58,039 bases of DNA from a virus (IMGVR_UViG_3300037246_001186:1-58039), one strand, 5' to 3'; positions 10,842 to 40,669 are shown, counted from the stretch's first letter. Notes: generated from the sequence alone by a model not told the origin. Program-made: numbers and translations.

Positions 10842-12682
10842 AGCGCTGCCAGCATTGATTTCATGGAGTCTCCTGTTACCACGTCGGCTAGGTTCTGCTT
10901 GTTCCGCAGAGCCTCAAGCTGAACGTGTGAGAGTGTCTTTTTCATCCGGTTCCCTCGGGCAGGGGGAGCGAGGCCTAGAAGATAAACTTCAGTCACTGGC
11001 CTAGTCTGCCCCTTGCGGTCAACGCGCTTCCTCGCCTGCGCCCACGTCCCATACTTGAACGTCAACCCATAGAAGAGGATAGTATCTGCGACCGTAAGAT
11101 TCAACCCCTTGGAGCCACATTCCCACTGAACGATGAGAACTCTGCATTCTGGATCATCCTTAAAGCGCTGCCGTCGGAGATCTCGCTCATCCTCCTTGAC
11201 ACCACCATGAAAACTAACTGGATTCCAGCCATTCCTCTCACACATCTCGGACAGAGCCTCAATCTCAGTCGCAGGGTGCTCCGCAAAGATCACGACCTTG
11301 CGCTGCGGGTCGAGCATCGCAGTCTTCATGTAGCCTTCAATGGCATCCAGGAATGGATTAGACTTCAGGGCCTTCCACCCTGCGTCCACGCCATCGCTGT
11401 CCATACACTTCACGAAGCCACCCAGAACCTGAGCCATCTTCTGATACCTGGTGAGGATGTTGCGGCCATCGATCAGGAAGTCACCATGCTCAGCCATCAT
11501 ATCCGACTTCAGCTCGCGCAGAATGCGCCCCTGCTCCGCACTCAGCTCAACAGGGAGCGTGCGGGCAGTCACAGGCGGTAGATCCAGGCAGTCCTTGGCT
11601 AGTGCCCTGAAAGACACCCGGGAGAGGCGCCGGTTGAGGTCGTCAAGGTTGCTATAGCCGGTGATGGTAGATACGAAGCGCGTGCCACCTCCCCTAGTTC
11701 TAACGGAGATGCGCTGCCGACGGGCGTAGGCACGATCGAATGAGAGTGCGGTGTTGAAGCCAAGACACCCGGGCTCCAGGATCTCGAACTGCGAGAACAC
11801 ATCCAGCGGGCTGCACTCCACAGGCGTACCGTTCAGAATCATACGGTAGTCGAACTTCTTCGACAACGTGGTTATCGCGTTGGTCGTGAGAGCATTCGGG
11901 TTCTTAACCTCGCCAGATTCATCAGCCACGAACATACCAGGCGGTGCAGCAGAAATAATGTCCAGTGTGCCCTGAAAGCGAGTAGCGGCGGGTGTCCGCT
12001 TGTTGATGTCGTATGCGAACTCCTCGTAGTTGGTAACGATCCATAGCAGCGAATCAGTCTCCTTGGCGAGTAGGCGCCGGAGGTACGCTTGTCGCTTGTC
12101 GCGGGAGCCTCGCAATATACGGACCTTCGGCTCACCCTCGGTGTGTATAATGACTTCGCCATCGTCGGCTCCCCATGTACCCTTCAAGTGATTCGGCGCC
12201 ACAACCATCACCCACTTGATGAGGCCCTGCGCGTGCAAGTGATTGGCAAGGCCCACAGTGACGAGGGACTTCCCTGTACCCTGCTCCATCAGCAGGGCGG
12301 CGTAGTTGGCTCCAGCCGCGATGCGCGATATGCAGAAGTTCATCCCCCGCACCTGCTGCTCCATAGGCTCGGTACACAAAAGAGGGTCGAAGATCAGCTC
12401 CTGCTCTTTCTCCTTCAGGGACTCCGCCTGATTCAGAGCCTCCCTCATCGATTGAAGATCGTTGACAGCTCCGAGGGCTTCCTTCGCTACCTCAGGGTCA
12501 AACGCAAGCATGATGTCACTGCACACGTCAGCGTCGTAGGGGAAGCTGAACACCGCTGAGCCCTCAACGGTGCCCTCGTGGTGGCACCCGCGGATCTGAC
12601 GCGCAGCAGCGCGCAAGGGGAGGATGCTCGGGAGCACCAGCACCAGGCGCGTGCCGTCTCTGCTTAGTCGGAGCTGCTTCAC
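10838..12682 (-). CDS. SNF2-family (SF2) helicase
   Basis: MEQGTGKS, VADES, LNGTP, GLNLT, QARKRVDRKGQ. Confidence 0.9.
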   Translation of the reverse strand: MKQLRLSRDGTRLVLVLPSILPLRAAARQIRGCHHEGTVEGSAVFSFPYDADVCSDIMLAFDPEVAKEALGAVNDLQSMREALNQAESLKEKEQELIFDPLLCTEPMEQQVRGMNFCISRIAAGANYAALLMEQGTGKSLVTVGLANHLHAQGLIKWVMVVAPNHLKGTWGADDGEVIIHTEGEPKVRILRGSRDKRQAYLRRLLAKETDSLLWIVTNYEEFAYDINKRTPAATRFQGTLDIISAAPPGMFVADESGEVKNPNALTTNAITTLSKKFDYRMILNGTPVECSPLDVFSQFEILEPGCLGFNTALSFDRAYARRQRISVRTRGGGTRFVSTITGYSNLDDLNRRLSRVSFRALAKDCLDLPPVTARTLPVELSAEQGRILRELKSDMMAEHGDFLIDGRNILTRYQKMAQVLGGFVKCMDSDGVDAGWKALKSNPFLDAIEGYMKTAMLDPQRKVVIFAEHPATEIEALSEMCERNGWNPVSFHGGVKEDERDLRRQRFKDDPECRVLIVQWECGSKGLNLTVADTILFYGLTFKYGTWAQARKRVDRKGQTRPVTEVYLLGLAPPARGNRMKKTLSHVQLEALRNKQNLADVVTGDSMKSMLAAL

Positions 12683-13272
12683 TTAGGCCTGGCCACCAGA
12701 TAGCCCTCATGGCGCTGCTGGATCTCGCACAAGTGCGTTTTGCCCAGCGCATCGATGAATGCGTCGGGTGTACCTATCGGACCAAGCGTCACCCTCCCAT
12801 CGGGCTGTGTGTACTTGAATGGTCCGTTGGCGAACTCCTCAGTAGAGTACAGGCGCCAGTCGTCGATGATGAAGACATCGCCGCTGTGATCGTAGTTGCT
12901 ATTGACGATGCTAAGGATTTCATCCTCTAGCGGCAGCTTCGGTGCATCACCAGGGTCACCATAGCGCTCGGGGAGGTGAGCATCCAGCCACCACAGGGTT
13001 GGTCCCTTCAAACAACCAACAATTACCTCAATGTATGTGCGTGAATCCCCCCGAAGAATCGACCACCTCTCATCGCAGGGTCGTTCCAAAACCATTCGGT
13101 CGCGAGCCTTTCGACACAAATCAGGCTGCAACTCAACACTCCACAATCTCTTGAACGGAAACCGCATCGCATGGAGGAGGCCATCACCTTTCCACGTCCC
13201 TGTCTCAACGAAGTTGTTGAGCTTGTAACTACTCTGTATCTGGTAGATAGGCCATGTGCTTAGTAATCCCAT
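12679..13272 (-). CDS. Class I SAM-dependent methyltransferase-like protein
   Basis: FVETGTWKGDG, SVEL, GDS, WLDAH, IIDD. Confidence 0.75.
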   Translation of the reverse strand: MGLLSTWPIYQIQSSYKLNNFVETGTWKGDGLLHAMRFPFKRLWSVELQPDLCRKARDRMVLERPCDERWSILRGDSRTYIEVIVGCLKGPTLWWLDAHLPERYGDPGDAPKLPLEDEILSIVNSNYDHSGDVFIIDDWRLYSTEEFANGPFKYTQPDGRVTLGPIGTPDAFIDALGKTHLCEIQQRHEGYLVARPK

Positions 13273-13913
13273 TAGCTTCTCACCAGTGCGACCAGGCGCT
13301 GCTTCTGCTCCATCCCAGCAGGTTGATCCTCAGTATACAGGACCTTCCAGTTGTTAGGGATGTGTAGGCCACGGGGAAACCAGCTGTAGCCATTTCCGCC
13401 AGGACCCGTCGCGCCATCGAAAGTCTGGGCAGGATCCGTGGCGAACGATAGGAGCACATACCGATGGAATCCCGTGCGACTGAGGAGGTAGTCAACCAGG
13501 TCGTCATGAACAGAATTCTCGGGGATGTGGTAGAGGACATCCACCGCTGCAACAAGATCAACTCGAAGTGGGTCTTGGAGATCACTAGAGAGGAAGTCAC
13601 CGAAGGTAGAGAGGACGAACTCCAGCTCTGGGTAACGCTCAATAGCGGTCGCTACGATAGGAGCGCAACCATCTACACCCATGTACATGATGCGGTTGAA
13701 ATCCTCCCATCGATCGAGGTACATCATGTCACCGATACCGAAGTCGAGCATTCGAAGGGCAACACCGCGGTGTCCAACAAAGTCCTGATAGATGGCACGC
13801 ATCGCCTTGGTCTTGGTCTCTGTCCACGCCGCGTTGTTACCGGAGAGCTTGCCGTTCCGGGCAAAGGACACCTCCATATGCTTCATCGACTCAATCTCGG
13901 TTGTCGCCTTCAT
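13272..13913 (-). CDS. Class I SAM-dependent methyltransferase
   Basis: LDFGIGD motif I, GVD, DVLYHI. Confidence 0.8.
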   Translation of the reverse strand: MKATTEIESMKHMEVSFARNGKLSGNNAAWTETKTKAMRAIYQDFVGHRGVALRMLDFGIGDMMYLDRWEDFNRIMYMGVDGCAPIVATAIERYPELEFVLSTFGDFLSSDLQDPLRVDLVAAVDVLYHIPENSVHDDLVDYLLSRTGFHRYVLLSFATDPAQTFDGATGPGGNGYSWFPRGLHIPNNWKVLYTEDQPAGMEQKQRLVALVRS

Positions 13914-14698
13914 ACTTTCTCCCATCCGTAACCAAGAGCGGCATAGGCGTCACCAGCCAGCTCGAATAAAAGTTCAAACTCATCGACGTTGAACTCTTGC
14001 TCCCATCGACCGATGCGCTGGGTGCGATTTACTGCGTCATGGAGAGCGGAACTAGCGTGAGCTACATGCTTGTGCGGATTGTTAGTCATAAGGCAAGCTG
14101 CGCTGCGACCTAGTTCCTCAGGATCAATCCCACCTACGAAGCGAGCTATACCCCTCCCTACTATCATAGGGTGCATCACCAAGTCCTCATAGCGAACGAT
14201 GGTGATACTGGAGTCATGGCGACTCCGAGCGAAGGCTTCAAGCCTCGCCCAGAAAGTAGCGATGATGACACGCGCTGGGTACTTCGATAGCTCTTTCGAC
14301 TCGGCGGGTGACAGCGCCCAATCCCACTGGTCGTTGGTGCGCTTGCGTAACCACTCCTCTGTACTCTGGCCATTCTTCCTGTTCGCCCTCACAACACTGC
14401 ACGCCACATCTCGACCGTCCCGAACGATGTGGAGACCACGGCCTCCCGTGATGTCACACACCTCAGCCAAGCGGACGATGTGACGAGGCTCCTTATCCAC
14501 GATGCGCATCTCCCCACGTCGAGTCCACTGACGTAGCGCCGCTGGATCAGATACTCCTTGACCAGGATGACCGAGGCGGAGGATCGCTGCACTCTGCTCA
14601 TAGGCTACACAGCAGTTAGCTACTCCCTCGAAGAGTTGACCGAGGATGGTGGTGCCGCTGCGCCCATGTCCTGCGATATGAATCGGTGTGTAGATCAC
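13910..14698 (-). CDS. PAPS-dependent sulfotransferase
   Basis: 5'-PSB loop GHGRSGTT, 3'-PB motif RDGRDVACS, VRYEDLV, IGRW. Confidence 0.9.
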   Translation of the reverse strand: MIYTPIHIAGHGRSGTTILGQLFEGVANCCVAYEQSAAILRLGHPGQGVSDPAALRQWTRRGEMRIVDKEPRHIVRLAEVCDITGGRGLHIVRDGRDVACSVVRANRKNGQSTEEWLRKRTNDQWDWALSPAESKELSKYPARVIIATFWARLEAFARSRHDSSITIVRYEDLVMHPMIVGRGIARFVGGIDPEELGRSAACLMTNNPHKHVAHASSALHDAVNRTQRIGRWEQEFNVDEFELLFELAGDAYAALGYGWEKV

Positions 14699-15702
14699 TT
14701 TGTACTGTTCCCGGGGAGTAGACGCACAGTGCGCGCACGACGAGTTCGCGCCACCTTGTGGTCCATTTCGGTATTTCCATCGTGTGGTTCGGTCCTGAGA
14801 ACGTTACCTCCAGGAGCGTAGTATCTCGCAGCGTACTGGTTCCGCATGTCATCTCTGATTGCTATGTCCTGCTCGTAGCGAACAGCCGCCATCCCTGGTT
14901 CGGCGATCAGCTCAGTACCATCAGACAGCTCCAACCAGTTCTCATCCACGATGCGGTTGTAGTCTACACTGAACATACCATTAGACCGAACTCGCGCGAA
15001 GGCCAGCCCATGCACCCATGTGTCGATCATCTGACCACGGGCGTAAGGAGGCGGCGGGTCGATGCTCGCCAAGCAACCAATGGACATCGCCATGTACTCA
15101 CCGGTAAGATTGCGAAGAGAGGCAATCTGATACTGATGGTTGTGGCCGTAAATGGTTGATACGCCAGTCTTCTTAATCATGTCAGCGGGAGTGCGCACCC
15201 CCTTGATGTGTCCATGCGTGAAGTGCAAGTCTCCGATCGCCCAGAAGCTGTTTTCAGGTACCCACTCCCACACGCGCTCATCCATACGGAGGCGCCTCTT
15301 GAGATTCACCATGTCACGCATGGTTGGGTACTTGGCCTCGAACTGCGTTGCCCACGCCTCGTGATTACCCTCGATGAAGATCACTTTGATGCCATGTGCC
15401 GCGGTGATGGCTTGAATGTCATCGAGTCGGTTGTTCACCAAGGCGATGTCCTCTTCAACAAAGACTTGATCCGCCCTAAGGGCAGACCAGCGACTCATCG
15501 ACTCCCAGTTTCCGAAGTCTCCGATGATGACGAAGTGGGTTATTCTATCACCGTAATGGACGAGAGCCTGAATCATCAGATCCCAGCACGGGAGTGAATA
15601 CGTCGGAGTATCAATCATATACCCAATGTGAACATCGGGTATGACCATGACGAAGTGTTCCTTCTGAGAGGGTGCCCGCCGCTTCGGAGGTCTGTACGTC
15701 AA
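14695..15702 (-). CDS. Calcineurin-like metallophosphoesterase
   Basis: PDVH, IGDF, EGNHE, THGH, YGHNH, SIGCL. Confidence 0.88.
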   Translation of the reverse strand: MTYRPPKRRAPSQKEHFVMVIPDVHIGYMIDTPTYSLPCWDLMIQALVHYGDRITHFVIIGDFGNWESMSRWSALRADQVFVEEDIALVNNRLDDIQAITAAHGIKVIFIEGNHEAWATQFEAKYPTMRDMVNLKRRLRMDERVWEWVPENSFWAIGDLHFTHGHIKGVRTPADMIKKTGVSTIYGHNHQYQIASLRNLTGEYMAMSIGCLASIDPPPPYARGQMIDTWVHGLAFARVRSNGMFSVDYNRIVDENWLELSDGTELIAEPGMAAVRYEQDIAIRDDMRNQYAARYYAPGGNVLRTEPHDGNTEMDHKVARTRRARTVRLLPGNSTK

Positions 15703-16229
15703 TTAACTTCCTTTGGATCTTCGGGTGCAACAGGACTCTCGGGTACCCCCGCGGCGTTCTCCGCTTCAGTCCACTTCGTGAGGCTATCTACCAGCTCCTT
15801 AGCTTTCTTTCCAAGAGGTCTCTCATCATCCTTCTTGAGGCGACTCTCAGTGACGGTGCTGGGCTTGCCCCGGTCCACGCGCTCCAACTCTATGACTGTC
15901 TTGAGTGCTCGGGAAAGCGTCTCCAATCCGGGAGCCTCGGCTCGCTCAACAGGATTCGGACTCTTGAGTGCCCTGACCGCGTTGTCAAGAGCAGTCTCGA
16001 CAGCCTCAGCTGCCGCCATGGCAACCGGAATCAAGCGCTGCGTGCGTGCCGACTCAATCTCATCCGCCAGTGCCTCGTAGTACGCGAGGAACAGTGGCTC
16101 GCGCAGCCACCGATACAAGGTAGTGCGATTCACTCCCTCGTCAGTGGCGATCTTTGTACGGTGGATGCCTCGTAGCAGTGCCTCTGCTACGCGCTTGTGT
16201 TGCTCGGTTAAGACTGTTAGTCCTGCCAT
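15699..16229 (-). CDS. HTH DNA-binding protein, terminase-small-subunit-like
   Basis: LTEQHKRVAEALL...IATDEGVNRTTLYRWLREPLF. Confidence 0.65.
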   Translation of the reverse strand: MAGLTVLTEQHKRVAEALLRGIHRTKIATDEGVNRTTLYRWLREPLFLAYYEALADEIESARTQRLIPVAMAAAEAVETALDNAVRALKSPNPVERAEAPGLETLSRALKTVIELERVDRGKPSTVTESRLKKDDERPLGKKAKELVDSLTKWTEAENAAGVPESPVAPEDPKEVN

Positions 16230-17008
16230 TATGCCCCTTCCACTCTTATATCAACTCCATTCATCTTTCTGCGATACTCCCTGAGTAAGTCAGGCAACTT
16301 CTTCTCCCACCTCTGGATGAAGTACTCACCATTGTGGTGATCCTGCTTTCCACAGAGAGAGCGGGTACCCCCCTCTCCGTGTATAGCCACAGCGTCACGA
16401 GCGCATCCGACGCTGCCACCCCTCTCCAAGATCTTCAAACACAAGTCAGTGTCCTCAAACCCGTAGTTGTAACCCTCGTCGAATCCGCCCACTTCGTTGA
16501 ATACATCTGCACGCACCATCGCAGCAGCAAACGTCACCGACGGGGTGTAAACAAAACCCTGCCCGCGATAGCGGTCTCGGGGCTCATTCCTTCCAATGTG
16601 GTCGCACCTGTATGGTAGCACGATTCGGGTACCGGCATGATTCACCGTACCGTCCTCATGGAGAAGAAGCGCTCCGATCACATCAGCCTGATTCCGGTAC
16701 CACCACAACCTGTCAAGGAACAGAGGCTCCGGGATGGCGTCGTCATTCAGGAACAGGATCCACTCGGTGTCGGGAGCGGCCTTCACCGCGGTGTTGTTTC
16801 CGACGGAGAAGCTCGTATTGAAGCGCGGATCGAGGGTGGCCCAATCGGCCTTCAAGGCAAGCGATACCTTTTCGGGGTCGCGGTCATTGTTCACCAGGAC
16901 TCCGAGGTACTGCGGAACCTCCCCCTCCTGCTGAGCCAGGGCCTTCAGCAGTCGCTGGAAGTACTTGATGTTTCGGCTCAGCGTCACGATAGTGAGTTCA
17001 CACGCCAT
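16229..17008 (-). CDS. Glycosyltransferase family 2
   Basis: SFSVGNN, LFLNDDA, GGFDEGYNYGFEDTDLC. Confidence 0.9.
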   Translation of the reverse strand: MACELTIVTLSRNIKYFQRLLKALAQQEGEVPQYLGVLVNNDRDPEKVSLALKADWATLDPRFNTSFSVGNNTAVKAAPDTEWILFLNDDAIPEPLFLDRLWWYRNQADVIGALLLHEDGTVNHAGTRIVLPYRCDHIGRNEPRDRYRGQGFVYTPSVTFAAAMVRADVFNEVGGFDEGYNYGFEDTDLCLKILERGGSVGCARDAVAIHGEGGTRSLCGKQDHHNGEYFIQRWEKKLPDLLREYRRKMNGVDIRVEGA

Positions 17009-17669
17009 GATGAACTAGCCCCCCATCTACAAACATATCCACACTCTGCCACGCCTGATGACAATTATCGCGCGGCAGTGCCAACTTGTCACCGAGTGTA
17101 GCTACAGGCTCAATGAGGAAGTCTGCGAACTCAGCCTCAACAGCGCCAGGCATCTGAGACCACTTGAAGATCTCCTGGTTGTACACGGCAATCAGCATCT
17201 CAGCTCGCTCCGCGTCCCAGCCCTCACGCGCCATCAGTGACGAAACGATGGCCTCTGGCTTGCGCCTAACGATCACCGGGAGCAGCTCCAAACCCATGCG
17301 GTCAGCGAAACGCCTCCATAGTGGGAGCATCACGCACATCCTCGGATCCTTGACACCGGGCAGATCCACCTCACCCATGCGGTTTAGCTCATACCAACGG
17401 CAGAGACTATCCAAGGCCAAGGTTCCCTCTCGGCTCCAAAAGGCACTGCCTCTTAAGATAGGCCGACGGCACCACGCCCTACCATTCAACGCAAGGAGTC
17501 GATCGTGTGCTCGAACGACAGGCATCGCCTCGTAGTAGCCCTTCGGGTTATCACTGCTCGCGGGCATCAGCTGGTTACCAAAGTCCACCCCCAAGCGAGC
17601 GAGAGTGCCCGCAACAGCAGAAGTCCCACTGCGGTGCATCCCTATGACACACAGAAGCTTACTCGGCAT
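16998..17669 (-). CDS. Sulfotransferase-family protein
   Basis: VIGMHRSGTS, DNPKGYYE, KDPR, RKPEAIVSSL. Confidence 0.88.
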   Translation of the reverse strand: MPSKLLCVIGMHRSGTSAVAGTLARLGVDFGNQLMPASSDNPKGYYEAMPVVRAHDRLLALNGRAWCRRPILRGSAFWSREGTLALDSLCRWYELNRMGEVDLPGVKDPRMCVMLPLWRRFADRMGLELLPVIVRRKPEAIVSSLMAREGWDAERAEMLIAVYNQEIFKWSQMPGAVEAEFADFLIEPVATLGDKLALPRDNCHQAWQSVDMFVDGGLVHHGV

Positions 17670-19896
17670 CAGGCATCACCAGCTCGGGGGCTTCTGGCTC
17701 CTCGATATCGATGAACTCGCGCAGCGCCTTGGCGATACGCCCCGGTGTCAGCGAGGCAACCCACGCACCTGGATCAGCCTTCGGGAACGGGCCAGCGGGG
17801 AACGTATCCCCAGCGATCTCAGTATCCGTCGGAATCACAGATGCAGTAGGCGCCTCGTAGTGACTCAGCCGAGTCTCCGGAGAGAAGAGTGAGAAGCAAC
17901 CCAGCGTCGGGGTACCCACCGCTGCCGCCAAGTGCATGACTCCAGAGTCCGCAGCGACGACTGCCCCCACACACGATAGGATGCACACCAGCGTTTCCAT
18001 ATCAGACTGACCAGACATATCGAGCACCCCATTGAGGCGGATGCCGAGGTTCGTCTCGCCAACGACGAGAGGCGTAAGCCCCATGCCCTTGATGAGCGGG
18101 AACATCTGGGTCAGGTAGTTCCGGGGCAACTGCCGGTGAGGGCTGCCAGACTCGAACGCCAGTGCGACGCATGAAGTTGGATCCACTCCAAACTGCTCCA
18201 GGAACTGCGCCCGGATCATCTGGACCTTCTCCTCATCCAGTGTCACACCGAAGGGGAGGAGTTCATCGTCCTCTAGCCCCATCCAACGAGAAATCGTCAG
18301 AGAACGGTTGACGCTCGGATCTCCCCACGTCGATCTATGCTTCGGAAAGTACAGACCTTCAAGTCGAATCGTCGTGTTGACAGACGTGTTCGGAGTCTTG
18401 TGGGTCTCGTAGGCATCGGCCAATCCCAGTAACCGCGCAAGGTGCAAGCGCTGGCGCTGGACACGAAGCTTGACAGAGCCGTGCTTCCGCAGCGCCTCCA
18501 GGGCCGGACCAGCCATGACGAGATCTCCGTGCCCTGGGTTGTTTACCATGGTCACGAGGAACTCGTGCTCATCGCCGGGTACCGCCATCTTCATCCCACT
18601 TCTCTCCTTCATCAGCTCCTTCTCCTGCTCAGCCACGATGCCAACCCACTGCTGCTGGACACTCTCTAGGCTGGACACTCGCTCGACGAAAGCCCTCCCC
18701 TTATCGCTGTGGCGCTTGAACTTGGGACGCTTCCCATCGATGATGTTCATGATCGTCTTGGCCGCGTTGGCCGCGTTCGGGAAACCCATGCGGCGAGCGT
18801 ACCCTCCACGCATGACGTGTGAGCGCTTCGCTGTCTCATAGAGGTGGACGTTGGGGGTGTCCTTGTGCCAGGCAGCTCGGGCACTATCGTTCGGAACGAC
18901 GCACGGAACGCCACAGGCAAGAGCCTCCCACAGAGGATACTGGAAACCCTCGCCAGTGCTCGTGGAGAGGAACACGTCGGCAGAGGCGTAGATAGTGCGG
19001 GACATCTCCTCTTCGGGGACTCCGCCACCAGCGGGCCAGATGATATCTCTTCCGCGCTGAAGACCATAGCGCTCCGCCATCAGCGGGAGGTTGTAACCGA
19101 GTCCGGCACCCTGCGACTCCTCATCCTCCATCATGTGCTGGTTCAGGAGGAGCTTGCCACGCAGGCTGGGCCGCTGCTTCAGGATGCGCTCCATAACCTC
19201 CTGCGCCATCCAATTGATCTTGCGCTGCTGATTCCGCTCCAACTGGAGGATCACGAACGTATCCGGATCAACACCAAGGCGCTGCTTCGCATCCCGGCGC
19301 TCCTCGTCCGTGGGTATGGCGTACTTCTCCAGATCCACACCGTGAGGGATGACTTTCAGGCGCTGTTCGAGTGCCTCGCGATTCGACTTGCCACCAGCCA
19401 GCTGAATCGTCCACTCCATCAGATCGTGAACATGACTGGCCATAGTAACAGGGACATCGAAGTACGCATCCGCGCCCAGAACGGACATCTCGAAATGTGA
19501 GAGCGGCCCACCATCGACAGGGAACCAACCCATCATGCGAAAGCCAGGATTAGCCTGCCGCAAGGAGTGGAAGACAGCAAGCGCCGACGTTGGCGGTTCG
19601 GTGCCGGGCACCGGATACTTCCACGGAACCTCGGGATCAAACGTCGTCCACATCATATCGAACTCTTCGCCCTGAACGATGCGCGGGATCTCATGGAGTC
19701 CGTAGGGATCCGACTCTCTCAGCGTGGGGGCGTACACCTTCCACGGAATGTCTTGGATCGTCACTGGATCCAGATTCACAGCCAGTTGAGTGATGGTATG
19801 CCCTGCGTCGTGTAATGCGTGGAGGATGTGCTGGGCGGATCGGCCAAAGCCGGTGTGGGCTGTTGGTGCGTCGCACCATGCAAAGATTCTAGCCAC
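17659..19896 (-). CDS. Fused glycosyltransferase: GT4 (N-terminal) plus GT9 heptosyltransferase-like (C-terminal)
   Basis: GT4: TGFGR, IPHGVD, GEGFQYPLWEALACGVP. GT9: GHGDLVMAGPAL, DSGVMHLAAAVGTPTLG. Confidence 0.88.
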   Translation of the reverse strand: MARIFAWCDAPTAHTGFGRSAQHILHALHDAGHTITQLAVNLDPVTIQDIPWKVYAPTLRESDPYGLHEIPRIVQGEEFDMMWTTFDPEVPWKYPVPGTEPPTSALAVFHSLRQANPGFRMMGWFPVDGGPLSHFEMSVLGADAYFDVPVTMASHVHDLMEWTIQLAGGKSNREALEQRLKVIPHGVDLEKYAIPTDEERRDAKQRLGVDPDTFVILQLERNQQRKINWMAQEVMERILKQRPSLRGKLLLNQHMMEDEESQGAGLGYNLPLMAERYGLQRGRDIIWPAGGGVPEEEMSRTIYASADVFLSTSTGEGFQYPLWEALACGVPCVVPNDSARAAWHKDTPNVHLYETAKRSHVMRGGYARRMGFPNAANAAKTIMNIIDGKRPKFKRHSDKGRAFVERVSSLESVQQQWVGIVAEQEKELMKERSGMKMAVPGDEHEFLVTMVNNPGHGDLVMAGPALEALRKHGSVKLRVQRQRLHLARLLGLADAYETHKTPNTSVNTTIRLEGLYFPKHRSTWGDPSVNRSLTISRWMGLEDDELLPFGVTLDEEKVQMIRAQFLEQFGVDPTSCVALAFESGSPHRQLPRNYLTQMFPLIKGMGLTPLVVGETNLGIRLNGVLDMSGQSDMETLVCILSCVGAVVAADSGVMHLAAAVGTPTLGCFSLFSPETRLSHYEAPTASVIPTDTEIAGDTFPAGPFPKADPGAWVASLTPGRIAKALREFIDIEEPEAPELVMPDAE

Positions 19897-19898
19897 GT

Positions 19899-20300
19899 TC
19901 AGGACTCCAGTGTCTTAGTGAGCTGATCCACATACGCCTGAATTGCCATGCGTGCTCTGGACTTGCTCTGTTTATGCGGCATGATCCCTCTGTCTCTTCG
20001 GTGCTTGGCAATAGTCGCGGAGGCAATACCACTCCGCCTAGCCAGTTCCCGATCAGAGATCTTGCCTAGAAGGTGAACCACCCTGGCCACCCGATCGTAC
20101 TTTGGAATGCGCAACTCTCTTCGTAACCGCCCTACAAGACTACGGTGTACGCCTAGCTCCGCAGCGAGGGACAGATCCGTACACTTTCCCAGACGCATGA
20201 TAATCGAACTGTAGTCATTCCGTTGTCCGGGCTCATGTTCTATGCTAGACTGGTCGATAAGCTCAGCATCGGAGGTAGCACTCAATGAACCAGCCCTCAT
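19899..20300 (-). CDS. Tandem-HTH DNA-binding protein (possible regulator); true start may be ATG 20198
   Basis: Two repeats of LGKxxDxxLAxxxG...RxxxxI; divergent from the recombinase. Confidence 0.7.
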   Translation of the reverse strand: MRAGSLSATSDAELIDQSSIEHEPGQRNDYSSIIMRLGKCTDLSLAAELGVHRSLVGRLRRELRIPKYDRVARVVHLLGKISDRELARRSGIASATIAKHRRDRGIMPHKQSKSRARMAIQAYVDQLTKTLES

Positions 20301-21172
20301 CCCTTACTTTCAGCGCCTTCGCCTCCATCAGTATTGATCGACGCATTCTCACTGAAGGTACAACTCAAGGATACCTGCGCTTGCTCGATCACGCAACCCC
20401 CACGCTGGGGTGCCACCAGATCGGAGCTATCTCACGCGGACACGTTCAGGAGTGCCTGGCTGATTGTCGCGACAAGCTCTCCCCATCGACAGCCCAGAAC
20501 GTGCTGAAGCTCATCCGAAGCATCCTGAGAGACGCAGGCAGCACCGCTGCCGACAACATCACTGTTCCTGTCCATGAGCCCAGCATCAGAGTGCTGGACG
20601 CAAGTGAGGTTAGCACACTCCGCACGTACCTGGCCGCACTTGAAACACCGACAGCCTACGCCCTCCTCGTACTGATGGGAACAGGCTTGAGGCGGAGTGA
20701 GCTTCTGAATCTGACTGTGGATGATTGGAGAAGTGGGAGCCGACAGCTGCATGTGGCGCGCTCCAAGTCTCGACGAGTGCGAGACGTGGATGTTCCTGAC
20801 TCGCTGTGTGAGGTGCTTGAGAAAGCTGTCTCTGACAGGATGAAACAAGATAGTGTCACTCCTCATTTCGAAAGTCTGAAAAAAGCCCGAGTAAATTTTC
20901 AGAGTAGAGCTGAGACCAGTGGGCCGCTGTTCGCCATCAGTAAAGACACTCTGCGACGCGCGCTGAATAGTGCCTGTGAAGCTGTTGGTCTTCCTCACAT
21001 ACGCATCCACGCCCTGAGGCATACCCGCATCACCTACCTTCTCATCCGAGGTGTCACTCCCCTATACGTTAGCCAGCAAGCAGGACATAGCTCTCCTGCT
21101 TTCACCCTATCGAGGTATGGCCACCTTGTCGCCGCCTCAACAGAGCAGCGAAGATCCTGGTGTAACGCCTAG
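20285..21172 (+). CDS. Tyrosine recombinase/integrase (core-binding and catalytic domains)
   Basis: TGLRRSE (R), KS (K), HALRH (HxxR), GHSS, RYGH (Y). Confidence 0.93.
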   Translation: MNQPSSLTFSAFASISIDRRILTEGTTQGYLRLLDHATPTLGCHQIGAISRGHVQECLADCRDKLSPSTAQNVLKLIRSILRDAGSTAADNITVPVHEPSIRVLDASEVSTLRTYLAALETPTAYALLVLMGTGLRRSELLNLTVDDWRSGSRQLHVARSKSRRVRDVDVPDSLCEVLEKAVSDRMKQDSVTPHFESLKKARVNFQSRAETSGPLFAISKDTLRRALNSACEAVGLPHIRIHALRHTRITYLLIRGVTPLYVSQQAGHSSPAFTLSRYGHLVAASTEQRRSWCNA

Positions 21173-22113
21173 CTTCTAACGGTCTTCAGGCTGAATGACA
21201 GATTGGCCGGATCAGTCCCAGACACCGACCCTAACACCGCGGTCACCCGGTCACCTGAGGTGACACTATTGGCACTCGTAGCCGTGTGGATACCCTGCGA
21301 TCCTGATGCTGTCACGTCACTCATACCCGATACCGGAGTACCATTGATAGCGACGGTAGCCTGAACTTGGCCAGGTCCAGCAAACGGAGTAACCTCAACA
21401 TCAGCCATGATTCTGATAACCGTACCAGAAAATACCCCGTTCGTAACATTCACTCTCATTAGATGGCTCAAATCAATATCATACAGATGTACGCCTGGAT
21501 CGAAACGAACAGTCTTTCGATACTCATCAATACCTGATGTAGTGATATCAACGGTACCATCCTGAAGAGCTAGGCCGCCTGCACCATTATCAGTAACCCG
21601 AAAGAGCTGAATCAACCCAGGGCTTCCCTCTTCTGTAACCTGAAACGAGAATGACATAGCCGTCACCCAACCGGTCTGAACTGCTTGAGGCCCTGACTCA
21701 GGTTTTCCTACCTGATTCCCCTGGAATGAATAGTTCAAGTTTCTAACTCGGGTACCAGATAAAGTGGCACCAACCTCGTGCCCCCATGTGTACTTATGTA
21801 CATGACCAATGGTGCCTGACGCTGTTCTAACAGCTAGGTCTTGAATCTCATAGTCGTAGAAGGCTCTCTCATCCAGCACAAGAGTGTCACCACTGAGCAC
21901 CGTTTGGGTGTGATGTCTGATCGACTCAATAAGGCCCGCTATACTCTGCGCACCAGCTAGCTCCAGACTCCCTGATAGTGCCAGACTACCATCCAACGCG
22001 AAGGATGTGGCCGCAGGCTCCAGGTCAACAAAGTTGCTACGCATCTTACCAATGTCACCACCAGCCCCTCGGACAACATTGACATCAGCCGGTATCGTTT
22101 TATCATACGCCAC
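21169..22113 (-). CDS. Tail fibre or receptor-binding-type structural protein
   Basis: Last gene of the tail operon; beta-rich; S/G/T-rich. Confidence 0.6.
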   Translation of the reverse strand: MAYDKTIPADVNVVRGAGGDIGKMRSNFVDLEPAATSFALDGSLALSGSLELAGAQSIAGLIESIRHHTQTVLSGDTLVLDERAFYDYEIQDLAVRTASGTIGHVHKYTWGHEVGATLSGTRVRNLNYSFQGNQVGKPESGPQAVQTGWVTAMSFSFQVTEEGSPGLIQLFRVTDNGAGGLALQDGTVDITTSGIDEYRKTVRFDPGVHLYDIDLSHLMRVNVTNGVFSGTVIRIMADVEVTPFAGPGQVQATVAINGTPVSGMSDVTASGSQGIHTATSANSVTSGDRVTAVLGSVSGTDPANLSFSLKTVRS

Positions 22114-28241: not shown

Positions 28242-28766
28242 CTAGCCGCCACTGACAACCGATCCGGAGTAGATCCGGTACGGAGTCTCAACCCCACTGA
28301 TGGTCGTCCGGTACAGCTGGAACGTCACCGGAGTAACCATCTGGTTCTCCTCCGACAACACAACGTCACCAAGCTCAACCGGCGCGGCCTTTTCGGCGAT
28401 CAGAGTCATGCTCCCATCGCGAGCGACGATCCGCAGCTCCTTGGCATTGGCGCGGAACGAATCCCCGGGCACTGCCTTCGGCAAGAGAACCACAGTCCCA
28501 CTCACCCCATCTTGGCTGGTAGCGAATGGATAGATGACCCCCGAAAGGGTAGGCAACCCAGTCGAGTCTGACACGGGGATGGTGAACATCGTCGTGTCAC
28601 CTCGGCGGAGAGTATCCACCGGATTGACGTTGCCCTCATCATTCGCCGTCAAATCCAAGTTCTCAAGAGTCGTGGACCATACCACGTCACCAAACACCCG
28701 AACCTGGGTGCCCCCAAAGTACACATCCGCGGACAGCCCGTGGACGGTATCTGTTGCAAACGCCAT
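28242..28766 (-). CDS. Major tail (tube) protein
   Basis: 174 aa, beta-rich, canonical position. Confidence 0.7.
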   Translation of the reverse strand: MAFATDTVHGLSADVYFGGTQVRVFGDVVWSTTLENLDLTANDEGNVNPVDTLRRGDTTMFTIPVSDSTGLPTLSGVIYPFATSQDGVSGTVVLLPKAVPGDSFRANAKELRIVARDGSMTLIAEKAAPVELGDVVLSEENQMVTPVTFQLYRTTISGVETPYRIYSGSVVSGG

Positions 28767-28767: not shown

Positions 28768-29187
28768 CTATGTACCTCCGTCCTTTCTGATTAGTGCGTC
28801 AAAGTTCACGCTGAACATGAACCGCTCTGGTGGCTGTCCAGCTGACGGCCCCAGCGGGACCGATTGTGGCAGCGCAATCGCGCGAATCCACAGTACATCG
28901 TGACCCGCAAGAGTCACGCTGATTCGTTCATTCAATCTATCGTAGACAGCACGACACGCCGTCTGCCCACTCACCATATCGTTCGAGTCCACCAGCGCCT
29001 GGAAAGCATACTGCTCCTTGGCAGCGTGGGGGAACGGCAACCCTCCGGTCTGATTGATCACCACGTAGGTGTCGGCACCAGTCTCCCGGCGCAGGTTCTC
29101 TTGGATACAGACGCCAGACTGTGCATTGATCGTACCCACACTACCGGACACCAGATCGTCCACAACCGCTTTAAGGAAGTCAGCCAT
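28768..29187 (-). CDS. Tail terminator
   Basis: Size and position; 'TGG', 'FQALV', 'FSVNF' pattern. Confidence 0.7.
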   Translation of the reverse strand: MADFLKAVVDDLVSGSVGTINAQSGVCIQENLRRETGADTYVVINQTGGLPFPHAAKEQYAFQALVDSNDMVSGQTACRAVYDRLNERISVTLAGHDVLWIRAIALPQSVPLGPSAGQPPERFMFSVNFDALIRKDGGT

Positions 29188-31950: not shown

Positions 31951-32649
31951 TTACAACCTCCCGGTCACCTTCAGGAGATCGCGAAGGATCGCCTTTGTCT
32001 TGGGTGCGATGAACCGCGCCATCCCATGATTCAACGTAGGAATCCGAGTCTCACTGTACCCACTGCCATACGTTCTCGACTGGACATCGGCCTCCTCGTT
32101 GGTGCTGACGGCGGTGTCGCCCAAACCGTACTCCTCGCTCCCGAAGTGGATTCCATACTCCACCTGGAAAGCCACAGCCTGCTCCAGCACGTCAGGTAGC
32201 CTCGGAGAACCAAAGGGATCCTGGTCCACGAAGCGAGGGAACTTGCTCTCCTGATGAACCATGAACTCAGTCGTTTCCGACAGCGCCACAGTGAACCCAG
32301 TGAGTAGCGTGACTGAATCGGTAGTACTGGCAATGATCTGACGCTTCTGACCAGCGCCGGATTCATTCAAGAGGTGGACGTACACACCGCCCTTCGCCCA
32401 GTAGTTGGGGCGACGATCACCAAACGTGGTTGAAGGGAGAGTCGTGGAGCCGGAGGCTACCACGGCAGAGGGCTTACCGGTGAGGTCATGTGCGATGAAC
32501 CGCACATGCTTCCCCACATAGGCGTCGATCAAGACCTCAGCGTCGTTGATAAACTTCACCGACAACGCCTCGTCTGTGACGCCAGACATCGTATGGATGT
32601 AACCAGCGAGGGCGGAGGGTGCGATATAATTGAACTTCGATGTCGCCAA
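31951..32649 (-). CDS. Head-tail adaptor with an inserted beta domain
   Basis: 'INDAEVLIDAYVG', 'FPR', 'LPDVLEQAVAFQVEY', 'APKTKAIL'; follows the capsid gene. Confidence 0.75.
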   Translation of the reverse strand: MATSKFNYIAPSALAGYIHTMSGVTDEALSVKFINDAEVLIDAYVGKHVRFIAHDLTGKPSAVVASGSTTLPSTTFGDRRPNYWAKGGVYVHLLNESGAGQKRQIIASTTDSVTLLTGFTVALSETTEFMVHQESKFPRFVDQDPFGSPRLPDVLEQAVAFQVEYGIHFGSEEYGLGDTAVSTNEEADVQSRTYGSGYSETRIPTLNHGMARFIAPKTKAILRDLLKVTGRL

Positions 32650-35245: not shown

Positions 35246-35275
35246 CTAAAAAGCCCTTAAAAAGCCCGAGTAGAC

Positions 35276-38821: not shown

Positions 38822-39267
38822 CTCTTGGCTCGGAACAATCCATAAACCTCTCGGAAGCGTCTCCAGCGGCTCAGAGGCTTCTCGCCCTCATCCCACTCGC
38901 GGTAGGAACTAGCACCCCAGATACGAACTCGGCCCCAGTACATCCAGGCCAGTTGATTCTGTCGTATCCTTCCGGCGCCCTGCAACCGCAGCTGCGTCAT
39001 CATATTCTCTCGGAAGTTATTATCGGCCAGCCACCGCGCCTGCCAGGTGCCACCCAAACAACCAGTACGATACGCCCAGTCGTGAATCACGCACGCGGGC
39101 CAGAGCTTGTACACCTTCCAAGGTGCGACGATGTACGCGTCTGGGCTGTTGCTGCAACCATCACACTCCCACATCCTCGGGGGCTTCGGTCCAACCAGCG
39201 CCTCCCAGTAGGTAGAGCTAACAGCGAGCCGCTCGCCCCCTACAACAAACTCATACGATCTACTCAC
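38818..39267 (-). CDS. Phospholipase A2-like protein (CxxHDxxY)
   Basis: CDGCS, PACVIHDWAY, ADNNF. Confidence 0.65.
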   Translation of the reverse strand: MSRSYEFVVGGERLAVSSTYWEALVGPKPPRMWECDGCSNSPDAYIVAPWKVYKLWPACVIHDWAYRTGCLGGTWQARWLADNNFRENMMTQLRLQGAGRIRQNQLAWMYWGRVRIWGASSYREWDEGEKPLSRWRRFREVYGLFRAKR

Positions 39268-39946: not shown

Positions 39947-40305
39947 GGCAGCTTGTTTACTTCACCCTGCCCAAGCTCCTCGAAAGTTAGTCGCCTGGTC
40001 TCAGTAGTTTGGCCCTCACCACCTTCGAGCACACCTAATGCTTCAGTAGCGCTCGCATGGTTCTCGGGCCAGTCTTGGGCGCTATTCCTCACCCGCCACG
40101 CAAGATCGGGATCGGCATCCAGAACCTCGTTCGGGATCTCCCTCGCCTCCGCAGCAGTGATGTAGCTCTTGTCGTACTTCTGGCGAGCCAGCTCTACATC
40201 GCGCAACCGCGCCATCTTCGCAGACGACGCGGGGGTGTAGTCCTGCCCCATCTCGGCAGTACTCAGATTCTTCGAGGGCGGCCCCTGATCGATCTTAGGT
40301 GCCAA
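39943..40305 (-). CDS. Hypothetical protein
   Basis: Coupled ORF in the late operon. Confidence 0.55.
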   Translation of the reverse strand: MAPKIDQGPPSKNLSTAEMGQDYTPASSAKMARLRDVELARQKYDKSYITAAEAREIPNEVLDADPDLAWRVRNSAQDWPENHASATEALGVLEGGEGQTTETRRLTFEELGQGEVNKLP

Positions 40306-40669
40306 ACTGGATCTCACCACTGACAGCGAGGGATGCTCGTGCCGCGGTCAGTCGGGCCGGATTCTCGGCGCCAGTAAGGCTGATGTCCGCATAGCGGAAT
40401 GCCATCTCACGCTGAAGCTGCATGACGCCAGAGAGCACGGCGCCAGAGACACACTGCATCCCTGAGGCGACACCACTCACAGCGAGCACGCCACTCATCG
40501 ACAGGATGTTCACCGCGCGCTGAAGGAACGCGGGATACGTCTCATTCGAGAATGCACTGGTCGCCTGGCCATCGGCTTCGAGGCCGGTGACGGTCGCCAA
40601 AACCAGAGTCTCCGATGAGAGTCGGTTGGTGGAAAAGTCGTATACGGGAACTGTTCCTGAAAGTGCCAT
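40295..40669 (-). CDS. Ser-Gly-rich protein, probably virion-associated
   Basis: AGGAG SD; 7 SG dipeptides in 124 aa. Confidence 0.65.
   Translation of the reverse strand: MALSGTVPVYDFSTNRLSSETLVLATVTGLEADGQATSAFSNETYPAFLQRAVNILSMSGVLAVSGVASGMQCVSGAVLSGVMQLQREMAFRYADISLTGAENPARLTAARASLAVSGEIQFGT

What the first reader, a model, noticed from the sequence alone, without database searches (positions are those of the whole stretch)
12679..40669. Candidate virion-glycosylation system: Ser-Gly-rich virion proteins plus heptose, glycosyl, sulfo and methyl transfer enzymes
Seen in sequence: putative outward-facing structural proteins carry many Ser-Gly dipeptides, mostly after V/L/I/F/T/A. Hand counts are 7 in 124 aa (40295-40669), 10 in 250 (distal tail), 11 in 314 (tail fibre), 5 in 174 (tail tube), 3 in 139 (terminator), 4 in 232 (adaptor) and 9 in 899 (hub). 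Internal or non-virion proteins have few: about 2 in 650 (tape measure), 2 in 503 (TerL), 2 in 780 (polymerase), 1 in 614 (helicase). The same genome encodes a GT4-GT9 fusion, a GT2, two sulfotransferases, two methyltransferases, a cupin and an HldE-like kinase. Established: Ser-Gly is the glycosaminoglycan attachment site of animal proteoglycans; AIDA-I/TibA autotransporters are O-heptosylated on Ser in SGG-containing repeats; some mycobacteriophages glycosylate capsid and tail proteins. Inference: this phage writes sulfated/methylated, possibly heptose-containing O-glycans onto SG sites, giving a proteoglycan-like coat.
Basis: partly seen in the sequence, partly recalled or inferred. Interest (0 to 1): 0.9.

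Follow-up and report, generated by a model that had tools for sequence, protein, structure and literature searches.

The report
Ser-Gly tags on phage tail proteins
The tail proteins of this uncultured phage and its relatives carry about three times too many serine-glycine pairs, and the phage group always encodes an unusual double sugar-transferase, so the pairs may be sugar-attachment sites, but no chemistry shows this yet.

Summary
After composition correction, Ser-Gly (SG) is 3- to 4-fold enriched in the fibre, the post-tape-measure baseplate protein, the tail tube and a 147-aa protein, and weakly in the terminator. GS is not enriched.

In a pooled tail set, SG is the only outlier among 400 dipeptides (121 vs 38.4, z 14). 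TG, NG and DG are flat. The motif is hydrophobic-S-G and lies at strand ends and turns in AF2 models.

The SG sites are conserved across 40 baseplate-protein and 68 tube sequences. Sequence-divergent fibres of relatives are also SG-rich.

Five control phages and 40 loci of remote tube relatives lack the enrichment. The relatives also lack the GT fusion.

The GT4-GT9 fusion is a lineage-core gene, syntenic in 3 of 3 relatives where the region is visible.

The best reading is tail O-glycosylation at SG turns, analogous to TibC/Aah heptosylation of SGG loops (confidence 0.4). A purely structural motif, with the GTs acting on another acceptor, is nearly as likely (0.35). Heptose, sulfate and methyl groups on protein are unsupported.

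Other notes of this scan report similar SG/GT patterns on other phage DNA.

The parts
21169..22113 (-). Tail fibre / receptor-binding protein, 314 aa, SG-rich (11 vs 3.5)
   Evidence: Only the N-terminal 33-83 aa are shared with relatives' fibres, which are also SG-rich. No Pfam or PHROG hit; the label is positional.
22126..24825 (-). Tail hub / tip protein, 899 aa. SG 9 vs 5.8 (not significant here; significant in relatives)
   Evidence: Homologues in L004, L005, L006 and L008 have 11-18 SG vs 6.0-8.3 expected, p 0.03 to <0.001.
24822..25574 (-). Baseplate protein in the Dit position, 250 aa, with a CBM32-like jelly roll. SG 10 vs 3.1
   Evidence: Eight conserved SG columns in 40 sequences. 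AF2 pLDDT 93. Foldseek best hit 4zxe, E 6.5e-6.
28242..28766 (-). Tail tube protein, 174 aa. SG 5 vs 1.4; SG157 and SG167 invariant in 68 of 68 sequences
   Evidence: Foldseek hits to tail tube proteins (8zdj_S, 9jgh_C, 8gtb_A).
28768..29187 (-). Protein in the terminator position, 139 aa. SG 3 vs 0.78
   Evidence: phrog_10344 at E 2.5e-5. Homologues in L003 and L004 have 3 and 4 SG.
31951..32649 (-). Protein in the adaptor position, 232 aa. SG 4 vs 1.6 (p 0.07), GS also 4
   Evidence: No family hit.
40295..40738 (-). 147-aa ORF (124 aa from the ATG at 40669). 7 SG, five of them in one hydrophobic stretch. Role unknown
   Evidence: Maximum Kyte-Doolittle 19-residue score 1.65. No Pfam or PHROG hit. 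ESM Atlas gave only sub-0.9 leads.
19899..20300 (-). HTH protein preceding the GT fusion; conserved in that place in relatives
   Evidence: Pfam HTH_3. Homologues lie before the GT in L005, L006 and L008.
17659..19896 (-). Two-headed glycosyltransferase: GT4 half (about residues 1-390) fused to a GT9-like half (about 390-745)
   Evidence: PF13692 32.7 bits and PF01075 35.1 bits. 55 full-length homologues at 40-71% identity. Profile vs PDB: WaaF 1psw E 6.5e-8, GT4 3c4q E 1e-4. Syntenic in L005, L006 and L008.
16998..17669 (-). 223-aa protein; possible second sulfotransferase, by N-terminal motif only
   Evidence: No family hit. Has an R-S-G-T-S motif like that of 13910-14698. A homologue follows the GT in L006.
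16229..17008 (-). GT2-like (GT-A) glycosyltransferase, 259 aa, no membrane segment
   Evidence: Four GT2-type Pfam families, all below their cut-offs. NCBIfam EpsD at E 5e-9, below cut-off. Homologue in L008 at 39%.
15699..16229 (-). HTH protein
   Evidence: PF13022 at 30.6 bits. Homologue in L008.
14695..15702 (-). Metallophosphoesterase
   Evidence: PF00149 at 24.8 bits vs cut-off 21.5.
13910..14698 (-). Sulfotransferase
   Evidence: PF00685 at 42.9 bits vs 22; PF13469 at 42.2 vs 27.
13272..13925 (-). Methyltransferase-like protein
   Evidence: phrog_3382 at E 2.4e-10. Pfam Methyltransf_11 only at E 0.019.
12679..13272 (-).
   Evidence: Only NCBIfam ApyS at E 0.0023 over 66 aa. No Pfam hit at E<=1.
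10494..10841 (-). Cupin
   Evidence: PF07883 at 38.1 bits.
3415..4479 (-). PfkB-family sugar kinase; nearest family is the HldE kinase domain
   Evidence: PF00294 at 65.9 bits. TIGR02198 at 130.6 bits vs cut-off 345.

Best explanation
The hydrophobic-Ser-Gly motif is a conserved strand-end/turn element on tail proteins (tube, terminator, baseplate protein, hub, fibre). I read it as the acceptor site for O-glycosylation in the host cytoplasm by the lineage's own soluble enzymes. The core writer would be the two-headed GT4-GT9 transferase. The GT2-like enzyme would probably extend the glycan. This would give a sugar-decorated tail, not a decorated capsid.

Shown:
- the S-G-specific enrichment and its restriction to tail proteins;
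- its conservation in relatives;
- its absence from remote relatives that lack the enzyme;
- the core, syntenic status of the GT fusion.

Inferred:
- that the serines are modified at all;
- that these GTs do it.

Speculative:
- the sugar (heptose is possible because of the GT9-like half and the HldE-like kinase);
- any sulfate or methyl tailoring.
For: 1. SG is the single outlier of 400 dipeptides in 12 tail proteins (121 vs 38.4, z 14.0). TG, NG, DG, AG and GS are flat. The other 56 proteins of the window have 56 vs 64.
2. The enrichment is in tail proteins. It is absent from TMP, chaperone, portal, TerL, scaffold, MCP and the enzymes, both here and in relatives.
3. It is family-wide.
   - 38 of 40 baseplate-protein sequences have p<=0.02; the sum is 296 SG vs 84 expected, with 107 GS.
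   - 66 of 68 tube sequences have p<=0.05; the sum is 344 vs 93.
4. Fibres of relatives share only their first 33-83 aa with this one, yet have 14-22 SG vs 3.5-5.1 expected.
5. Controls lack it.
   - 1 of 94 structural proteins of lambda, SPP1, Che8, D3 and T1 reaches p<=0.01, and it is not a tail protein.
   - 8 of 491 ORFs around remote tube homologues reach p<=0.01, none strongly.
   - Those remote tubes lack SG75, SG89 and SG167.
   - 0 of 40 of those loci and 0 of 5 whole proviruses hold the GT fusion (positive control).
6. The GT fusion has 55 full-length homologues at 40-71% identity, then drops to 26%. It follows the fibre in 3 of 3 relatives where that region is visible.
7. The sites lie at strand ends, hairpin turns and loops in confident models.
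8. There is precedent.
   - Heptosylated TibA peptides are full of hydrophobic-S-G-G (PMC3835316, passages).
   - BAHT enzymes modify serines in loops between beta-strands of folded substrates (PMC8151025, passages).
   - Mycobacteriophages glycosylate capsid and tail tube with their own GTs (PMC12363180, passages).
Against: - No chemistry: nothing shows any modification.
- The excess sits in 8 (baseplate protein) and 5 (tube) fixed columns. After masking them, SG is 76 vs 51 and 49 vs 50. There is no turnover of sites.
- Gly is as conserved as Ser at these sites.
- S189 of the baseplate protein is the N-cap of a helix in an S-G-A-E box, an ordinary structural role.
- The GT9-like half matches LPS heptosyltransferase WaaF (E 6.5e-8). 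No TibC chain appears at E<=1.
- Che8, cited as a virion-glycosylating phage, has no SG excess. Two of five phages with a related GT4 (TJE1 0 of 29, phiPsal1 0 of 16) have none either.
- The capsid protein is not SG-rich.
- One 54,852-base contig carries close tube and baseplate homologues (P0055; P0002 with 8 SG), but no GT hit of that contig length is listed. I could not fetch it, so a GT-less SG-rich relative is not excluded.
Confidence: 0.4

Rival explanations
1. The hydrophobic-S-G motif is purely structural: a lineage-typical tight turn or strand cap in beta-rich tail folds. The GT4-GT9/GT2/sulfotransferase cluster acts on another acceptor. The most plausible one is a host envelope glycan (LPS core or exopolysaccharide), altered during infection or lysogeny to block superinfection or aid release.
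For: - The enrichment is confined to conserved columns, with Gly as conserved as Ser and no site turnover.
- One site is a helix N-cap.
- A relative carries a V-S-G-x-V-x hexapeptide repeat that looks like a beta-solenoid.
- The GT9-like half is nearest to WaaF, and the kinase is nearest to the HldE kinase domain, both LPS-core families.
- JGI names the homologues 'ADP-heptose:LPS heptosyltransferase'.
- Moderately SG-rich tail-module proteins also occur in three cyanophages.
Against: - A generic turn preference should also raise NG, DG and TG. They are flat.
- Remote homologues of the same tube fold do without the SG sites.
- Control phages show no comparable excess.
- The excess recurs in sequence-divergent fibres.
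- The GT fusion is a lineage-core gene with no close bacterial homologue, unlike typical conversion morons.
- No flippase, polymerase or membrane GT is present, and no enzyme of the cluster has a membrane segment.
- The supposed integrase has no family hit, so a temperate lifestyle is unverified.
Confidence: 0.35
2. The SG serines are functional sites of another kind. They could carry a different modification (for example direct O-sulfation or phosphorylation), or be recognised by an assembly factor or a host protein. The GT cluster would be unrelated.
For: - The preference for Ser is strict: S 68 of 68 at two tube sites, and TG is not enriched.
- One verified sulfotransferase, and a possible second, lie in the cluster.
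Against: No enzyme in the genome is identified as a protein kinase or a protein sulfotransferase. The sulfotransferase matches carbohydrate or small-molecule families only in general terms. No partner is known.
Confidence: 0.1
3. The GT cluster glycosylates phage DNA (base hypermodification) to evade restriction. SG is structural.
For: - The cluster lies beside the SNF2 helicase, primase, dNMP kinase and a sugar kinase.
- Its core-gene status fits an anti-restriction role.
- DNA glucosyltransferases of T-even phages are GT-B enzymes (recalled).
Against: No thymidylate-synthase-like hydroxymethylase, or other base-modifying family, was found in the proteins scanned. About 45 of my 63 ORFs were scanned. 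The small early ORFs were not scanned. This reading leaves the SG pattern unexplained.
Confidence: 0.05

Closest known systems
Bacterial autotransporter heptosyltransferases (BAHT: TibC, Aah) acting on TibA/AIDA-I
   Same: - A cytoplasmic GT-B enzyme O-glycosylates many serines.
- Those serines lie in loops between beta-strands of folded beta-rich proteins.
- The heptosylated TibA peptides are rich in hydrophobic-S-G-G (PMC3835316 and PMC8151025, passages).
- Here the candidate sites are hydrophobic-S-G at strand ends and turns, and a GT9-like, heptosyltransferase-family domain is present.
   Different: - There is no sequence relation to TibC.
- TibC is described as having no sequence homology to known GTs, and as an iron-containing dodecamer (PMC4358343, passages).
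- Here the enzyme is a GT4-GT9 fusion.
- The targets are phage tail proteins, not secreted adhesins.
- The modification is unproven.
Virion glycosylation of mycobacteriophages Che8, Corndog and Myrna (Freeman et al. 2023; paper not held, known here from passages in PMC12363180)
   Same: Phage-encoded glycosyltransferases decorate virion proteins, including the tail tube.
   Different: - Che8 gp108-110 have no significant similarity to any protein of this window; the best is E 0.021 over 22 aa.
- Che8 structural proteins show no SG excess: 0 of 20 at p<=0.01.
- There the capsid is a target; here the capsid protein is not SG-rich.
LPS inner-core heptosyltransferases WaaC/WaaF (GT9) with HldE
   Same: - PF01075 match above its cut-off.
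- The family profile hits WaaF 1psw at E 6.5e-8.
- The kinase's best family is the HldE kinase domain.
   Different: - All NCBIfam equivalog cut-offs are missed by far: 27.7 vs 134.6 bits and 130.6 vs 345 bits.
- The domain is fused to a GT4.
- It is restricted to one phage lineage.
- No adenylyltransferase, GmhA or GmhB was found among the proteins scanned.
GT4 (+GT2 +methyltransferase) cassettes inside the structural modules of siphophages S-CBS4, Mae-JY09 and phiPsal1
   Same: - Their GT4 is 22-25% identical to the GT4 half here.
- The cassettes lie between head and neck genes.
- S-CBS4 and Mae-JY09 have a few strongly SG-rich tail-module proteins with the same hydrophobic-S-G context.
   Different: - They have no GT9 half.
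- Their function is unknown.
- phiPsal1 and TJE1 show no SG excess.
- Their SG-rich proteins are not sequence-related to those here.

Membership tests
BAHT (TibC/Aah protein O-heptosyltransferases) | Sequence or profile similarity to TibC/Aah | tested here: not met
   phmmer and a 40-sequence family profile against all PDB chains list no TibC chain at E<=1. That TibC structures are in the PDB is taken from PMC4358343.
BAHT (TibC/Aah protein O-heptosyltransferases) | Acceptor serines in short loops between beta-strands on the surface of a folded beta-rich substrate | tested here: inconclusive
   Candidate SG sites lie at strand ends, hairpin turns and loops in AF2 models (pLDDT 93 and 85.5). 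Whether they are modified, or exposed in the assembled tail, was not determinable: no coordinates were available.
BAHT (TibC/Aah protein O-heptosyltransferases) | ADP-heptose donor, iron-finger motif, dodecameric ring | not testable with these tools
   Needs biochemistry or a structure of the enzyme.
GT9 LPS heptosyltransferases (WaaC/WaaF) | Match to PF01075 above the gathering score, and to solved GT9 enzymes | tested here: met
   PF01075 at 35.1 bits vs 22, but over residues 627-673 only. The profile hits 1psw at E 6.5e-8 and 3tov at 4.7e-7.
GT9 LPS heptosyltransferases (WaaC/WaaF) | Reaches the NCBIfam equivalog cut-off (same function as WaaC/WaaF/WaaQ) | tested here: not met
   TIGR02195 27.7 vs 134.6 bits; TIGR02193 22 vs 185.3; PRK10916 24.8 vs 569.
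GT4 retaining glycosyltransferases | Pfam GT4 match and conserved E-x7-E region | tested here: met
   PF13692 at 32.7 bits vs 27. E316 is invariant and E324 nearly invariant in 40 sequences. The identity of the motif is recalled.
Mycobacteriophage virion-glycosylation GTs (Che8 gp108-110) | Homology of the glycosyltransferases | tested here: not met
   blastp of Che8 gp108, gp109 and gp110 against 63 window proteins: best E 0.021 over 22 aa.
Mycobacteriophage virion-glycosylation GTs (Che8 gp108-110) | Glycans demonstrated on virion proteins | not testable with these tools
   Needs MS or glycostaining.
HldE heptose-7-phosphate kinase | Reaches the curated cut-off of TIGR02198 / PRK11316 | tested here: not met
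   130.6 vs 345 bits and 84 vs 521 bits. It is a PfkB-family member (65.9 vs 25.8 bits).
PAPS-dependent sulfotransferases | Pfam sulfotransferase match above the cut-off | tested here: met
   13910-14698: PF00685 42.9 vs 22 bits and PF13469 42.2 vs 27. 16998-17669 has no match and shares only an R-S-G-T-S-type N-terminal motif.
Animal proteoglycan GAG-attachment sites (xylosyltransferase) | Ser-Gly flanked by acidic residues (consensus recalled) | tested here: not met
   Position -1 is V/I/L/F/M/A in 75% of 121 sites. The neighbouring positions are hydrophobic or small, not acidic.

The most novel reading that the evidence does not exclude
Hydrophobic-Ser-Gly is a true sequon. It would be the first short address tag for sugar attachment on a bacteriophage particle. 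A phage-specific two-headed GT4-GT9 enzyme would write it onto beta-turns of every outward tail protein, with a heptose-containing glycan that the phage's own sulfotransferase(s) and methyltransferase(s) then tailor. This would give a sulfated glycoprotein tail. The same Ser-Gly code may be shared by many uncultured aquatic phage lineages, as other unchecked notes of this scan hint.
Probability: 0.1. Interest if true: 0.9.

Novelty: new variant of a known kind. Interest (0 to 1): 0.62.

Why it matters
Virion glycosylation by phage-encoded enzymes is so far documented mainly for mycobacteriophages. No acceptor motif is known for it. My full-text searches turned up no paper describing a Ser-Gly sequon, heptosylation or sulfation of phage particles.

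If the reading is right, glycosylated phage tails could be predicted from sequence alone. It would extend the TibC/Aah logic (glycosylation of beta-turn serines) from bacterial adhesins to viruses. It would also give a simple handle, S-to-A mutants, for testing what a tail glycan does: host recognition, protection from proteases or defence lectins, or stickiness to polysaccharide matrices.

The hypothesis is directly testable by co-expressing two genes and measuring mass.

Tried and rejected
Explanations rejected:
- Chance or composition artefact: rejected by shuffles and the GS control.
- A DNA-level motif: rejected because AGY-GGN and TCN-GGN codon pairs are both used, with 19 hexamers in all.
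- A generic 'turn with glycine' effect: rejected because NG, DG, TG and AG are flat.
- Ongoing gain of new SG sites (glycan-shield-like turnover): not seen. The residual O/E is 1.48 and 0.98, against a background of about 1.1-1.4.
- Avoidance of SG in non-tail proteins: not convincing. SG is 35 vs 44.4, but GS is equally low at 33. Control non-structural proteins give 144 vs 129.6.
- Co-occurrence of SG-rich proteins with related GT4 genes in other phages: weak. 7 of 138 against 1 of 94 gives Fisher p 0.15. Against 9 of 585 it gives p 0.02. All 7 are in three cyanophages, so host group is confounded.

Searches that gave nothing useful:
- Promoter/terminator scan between the fibre and the GT cluster: counts equal to shuffles.
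- PDB sequence searches of 16998-17669, 8966-9901 and 8029-8760: nothing.
- ESM Atlas for the 124-aa protein: only scores below 0.9.
- Megablast and tblastn of the tube in INPHARED: no match.
- TerL: 25% identity or less to named phages.
- More relatives through genome contigs and viral contigs with P0002 and with the GT alignment: none found.
- Records of L001, L003 and L004: fragments (16-43% complete) without the GT region, so uninformative.

Limits:
- No model coordinates are given out. Surface exposure was judged from DSSP strings only.
- Freeman et al. 2023 is not held. What I say about it comes from passages of citing papers.
- Supplementary files were not consulted.

Rows dropped:
- The tube alignment A4 holds 67 of the 89 hits plus the window. 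P0040, the window's own protein, and 21 others were left out, only to thin the set.
- A7 holds 39 of the 55 full-length GT homologues plus the window.
- In one search, identical ORFs were counted once (491 of 578).
- The tail set was chosen knowing the per-protein SG counts. The hub and adaptor were included although not individually significant.

Full report
WHAT THE WINDOW IS. The window is the whole held record, one 58,039-base virus contig. CheckV rates it 76% complete. Nearly all genes are on the minus strand.

Family searches give the following map.
- A siphovirus-type late operon: TerL 37201-38712, portal 35276-37267, scaffold, MCP 32739-33545, neck genes, tube 28242-28766, TMP 25588-27540, a 250-aa baseplate protein, an 899-aa hub and a 314-aa fibre.
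- The enzyme cluster 12679-19896, which follows.
- An SNF2 helicase, a cupin, a dNMP kinase, a primase-like protein, a PfkB kinase and a GGDEF protein, which come next.

The phage is far from anything named. There is no megablast match in INPHARED. TerL is at most 25% identical to named phages, and there is no tblastn match for the tube. The tube is confirmed by fold (AF2 pLDDT 85.5; Foldseek hits to tail tube proteins 8zdj_S, 9jgh_C and 8gtb_A). The 250-aa 'distal tail' protein has a CBM32-like jelly roll (pLDDT 93; 4zxe at E 6.5e-6).

The excess survives composition correction.

| Protein | SG observed | SG expected | p |
|---|---|---|---|
| Fibre | 11 | 3.5 | <0.0005 |
| 250-aa protein | 10 | 3.1 | <0.0005 |
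| Tube | 5 | 1.4 | 0.005 |
| 147-aa ORF | 7 | 1.8 | 0.001 |
| Terminator position | 3 | 0.78 | 0.03 |
| Adaptor position | 4 | 1.6 | 0.07 |
| Hub | 9 | 5.8 | 0.11 |

- GS is not enriched.
- TMP (3 vs 4.4), TerL (2), portal (5 vs 2.8), MCP (2 vs 0.9), polymerase (2) and helicase (1) are ordinary.
- The SGs use 19 different codon pairs, 23 AGY-GGN and 39 TCN-GGN. The signal is therefore in the protein, not the DNA.
- In a pooled set of 12 tail proteins (7 from the window and 5 fibre-region proteins of relatives; 3789 aa), SG is the only outlier among 400 dipeptides: 121 vs 38.4, z 14.0.
- In that set TG (z 0.1), NG (-0.9), DG (1.5), AG (-0.4) and GS (1.5) are flat.
- The other 56 window proteins have 56 SG vs 64 expected.
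- The residue before Ser is V/I/L/F/M/A in 75% of sites, against a 38% background.

IT IS A PROPERTY OF THE LINEAGE. The 250-aa protein has 39 homologues at 34-74% identity.
- 38 of the 40 sequences have p<=0.02. The sum is 296 SG vs 84 expected, with 107 GS.
- SG17, SG73, SG189, SG122 and SG48 are kept in 27-37 of 40 sequences.

The tube has 89 homologues. I aligned 68 sequences.
- SG157 and SG167 are invariant, SG75 is kept in 62 and SG89 in 52.
- The sum is 344 vs 93 expected.

The excess lies in 8 and 5 conserved columns. Outside them SG is 76 vs 51 and 49 vs 50. The sites are therefore fixed and do not turn over, and Gly is as conserved as Ser.

In metagenomic relatives (L003-L008) the fibres share only their first 33-83 residues with this one. 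They still carry 17, 22, 14 and 14 SG against 3.5-5.1 expected. The hubs carry 11-18 vs 6.0-8.3. TMP, portal, TerL, MCP and the GT itself are not enriched. One relative has, in a variable slot, a 501-aa protein with about ten V-S-G-x-V-x hexapeptide repeats.

CONTROLS.
- Of 94 structural proteins of lambda, SPP1, Che8, D3 and T1, one reaches p<=0.01: the lambda C protease. No tube, Dit or fibre exceeds O/E 1.8. Genome-wide SG O/E is 0.98-1.59.
- A profile search with the tube family found only 15 proteins in 1.8 billion. The remote tubes (22-28% identity) lack SG75, SG89 and SG167.
- I fetched 40 loci around such remote tubes. They have SG O/E 1.35 over 491 distinct ORFs, and 8 reach p<=0.01, none strongly.
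- None of those loci has the GT fusion within 10 kb, and neither do 5 of 5 whole proviruses. The same search finds the fusion in the window.
It could not be applied to close relatives, because none was shown to lack the GT.

STRUCTURE. In the baseplate model the SG sites fall as follows.
- At the end of strands: 17-18 and 122-123.
- At the start of a strand: 48-49.
- In a hairpin turn: 73-74.
- In loops: 98, 109 and 126.
- As a helix N-cap: 189, in S-G-A-E.

In the tube:
- S89-G90 close a hairpin;
- S157-G158 join two short strands;
- S167-G168 start the C-terminal coil.

This fits 'exposed turn', but also plain structural use. Exposure in the assembled tail could not be computed, because no coordinates are given out.

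THE ENZYMES.
- The 745-aa protein is a GT4 fused to a GT9-like domain. The GT4 half is the better conserved.
- Its family has 55 full-length members at 40-71% identity, then a drop to 26%.
- The longest-contig lengths of 9 GT hits coincide with those of tube hits, and 7 with those of baseplate hits.
- The fusion follows the fibre and an HTH gene in L005, L006 and L008, which is 3 of 3 relatives where that region is visible. It is a core gene of this phage group, not a recent host acquisition.
- The family profile hits WaaF (1psw, 6.5e-8) and a GT9 (3tov). The GT4 half hits 3c4q. No TibC chain appears at E<=1.
- No enzyme of the cluster has a membrane segment.
- Che8's GTs are unrelated.
- Weak GT4 relatives (22-25% identity) sit in five named phages. 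In S-CBS4, Mae-JY09 and phiPsal1 they lie, together with a GT2 and a methyltransferase, inside the head-neck module.
- Three of the five, all cyanophages, have a few SG-rich late proteins. TJE1 and phiPsal1 have none. The association is weak and confounded by host group.

PRECEDENT.
- Passages of PMC8151025 say the heptoses sit on loops connecting beta-strands of a folded beta-helix.
- Passages of PMC4358343 say TibC is a GT-B-like enzyme without sequence homology to known GTs.
- Passages of PMC12363180 summarise virion glycosylation in mycobacteriophages. The primary paper is not held.

WEIGHING. These points argue for a lineage-specific function of the motif:
- the S-G specificity;
- the restriction to tail proteins;
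- recurrence in divergent fibres;
- absence from remote homologues;
- a conserved GT placed right after the tail genes.

O-glycosylation in the TibC manner is the best candidate (0.4). These points keep a purely structural reading, with another GT acceptor, almost as likely (0.35):
- fixed columns;
- equally conserved Gly;
- a helix-cap site;
- the WaaF-like nature of the GT9 half;
- SG-poor phages that do glycosylate, or that carry related GT4s.

Heptose, sulfate and methyl groups on protein are guesses.

NOVELTY AND LIMITS. No paper found in four searches describes such a motif on phage particles. Other notes of this scan report similar Ser-Gly/GT patterns in other uncultured phages. The long contigs of relatives could therefore not be read, including one possible GT-less relative of 54,852 bases.

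Noticed in passing
window 24822-25574: The protein in the 'distal tail' position is not an obvious classical Dit. Its first ~140 residues model as a CBM32 / galactose-binding-like jelly roll (4zxe E 6.5e-6). It also resembles a phiCD508 baseplate chain (9gb2_S, 5e-4). It may therefore bind carbohydrate itself.
   Followed up: partly
L007 1079-2584: A relative carries a 501-aa protein with about ten V-S-G-x-V-x hexapeptide repeats, followed by three ~50-aa repeats. It lies in the variable slot between the adaptor and head-closure genes, and looks like a beta-solenoid fibre or decoration. The window has an unrelated, low-GC 447-aa ORF in that slot (29974-31317; GC 0.50).
   Followed up: partly
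window 38818-39267: A prokaryotic phospholipase A2-like protein (PF09056, 31.3 bits) sits just upstream of TerL. It is conserved there in relative L001 at 46% identity.
   Followed up: no
window 42403-43770: The 455-aa ORF that other notes call an integrase has no Pfam hit even at E<=1, and no NCBIfam hit. A temperate lifestyle is therefore not verified.
   Followed up: partly
window 476-1653: A GGDEF diguanylate cyclase (PF00990, 134 bits) lies next to a metallophosphoesterase at the end of the minus-strand gene array.
   Followed up: no
L010 9055-11421; L018 9787-13059; L019 6979-9351: GT4 + GT2 (+ methyltransferase) cassettes sit inside the head-neck modules of S-CBS4, Mae-JY09 and phiPsal1. 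This recurrent arrangement hints at a virion-related role.
   Followed up: partly
L060 8075-9343 and 17153-18619: Synechococcus phage S-EIVl encodes a related GT4 next to its primase, and also a sulfate adenylyltransferase. Four of 31 of its late-region proteins are SG-rich at p<=0.01.
   Followed up: partly
window 52488-52912: Two tRNA genes, His(GTG) and Pro(TGG), lie among the small early ORFs.
   Followed up: no
window 13910-14698 and 16998-17669: Both proteins begin with a G-x-x-R-S-G-T-[ST] stretch. From recall, this resembles the PAPS 5'-phosphosulfate-binding loop of bacterial sulfotransferases. Only the first protein has a Pfam match.
   Followed up: partly
window 6645-7181: A 178-aa protein has faint sigma-70 region 2 similarity (E 0.021, below the cut-off). 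It could be a phage sigma factor.
   Followed up: no
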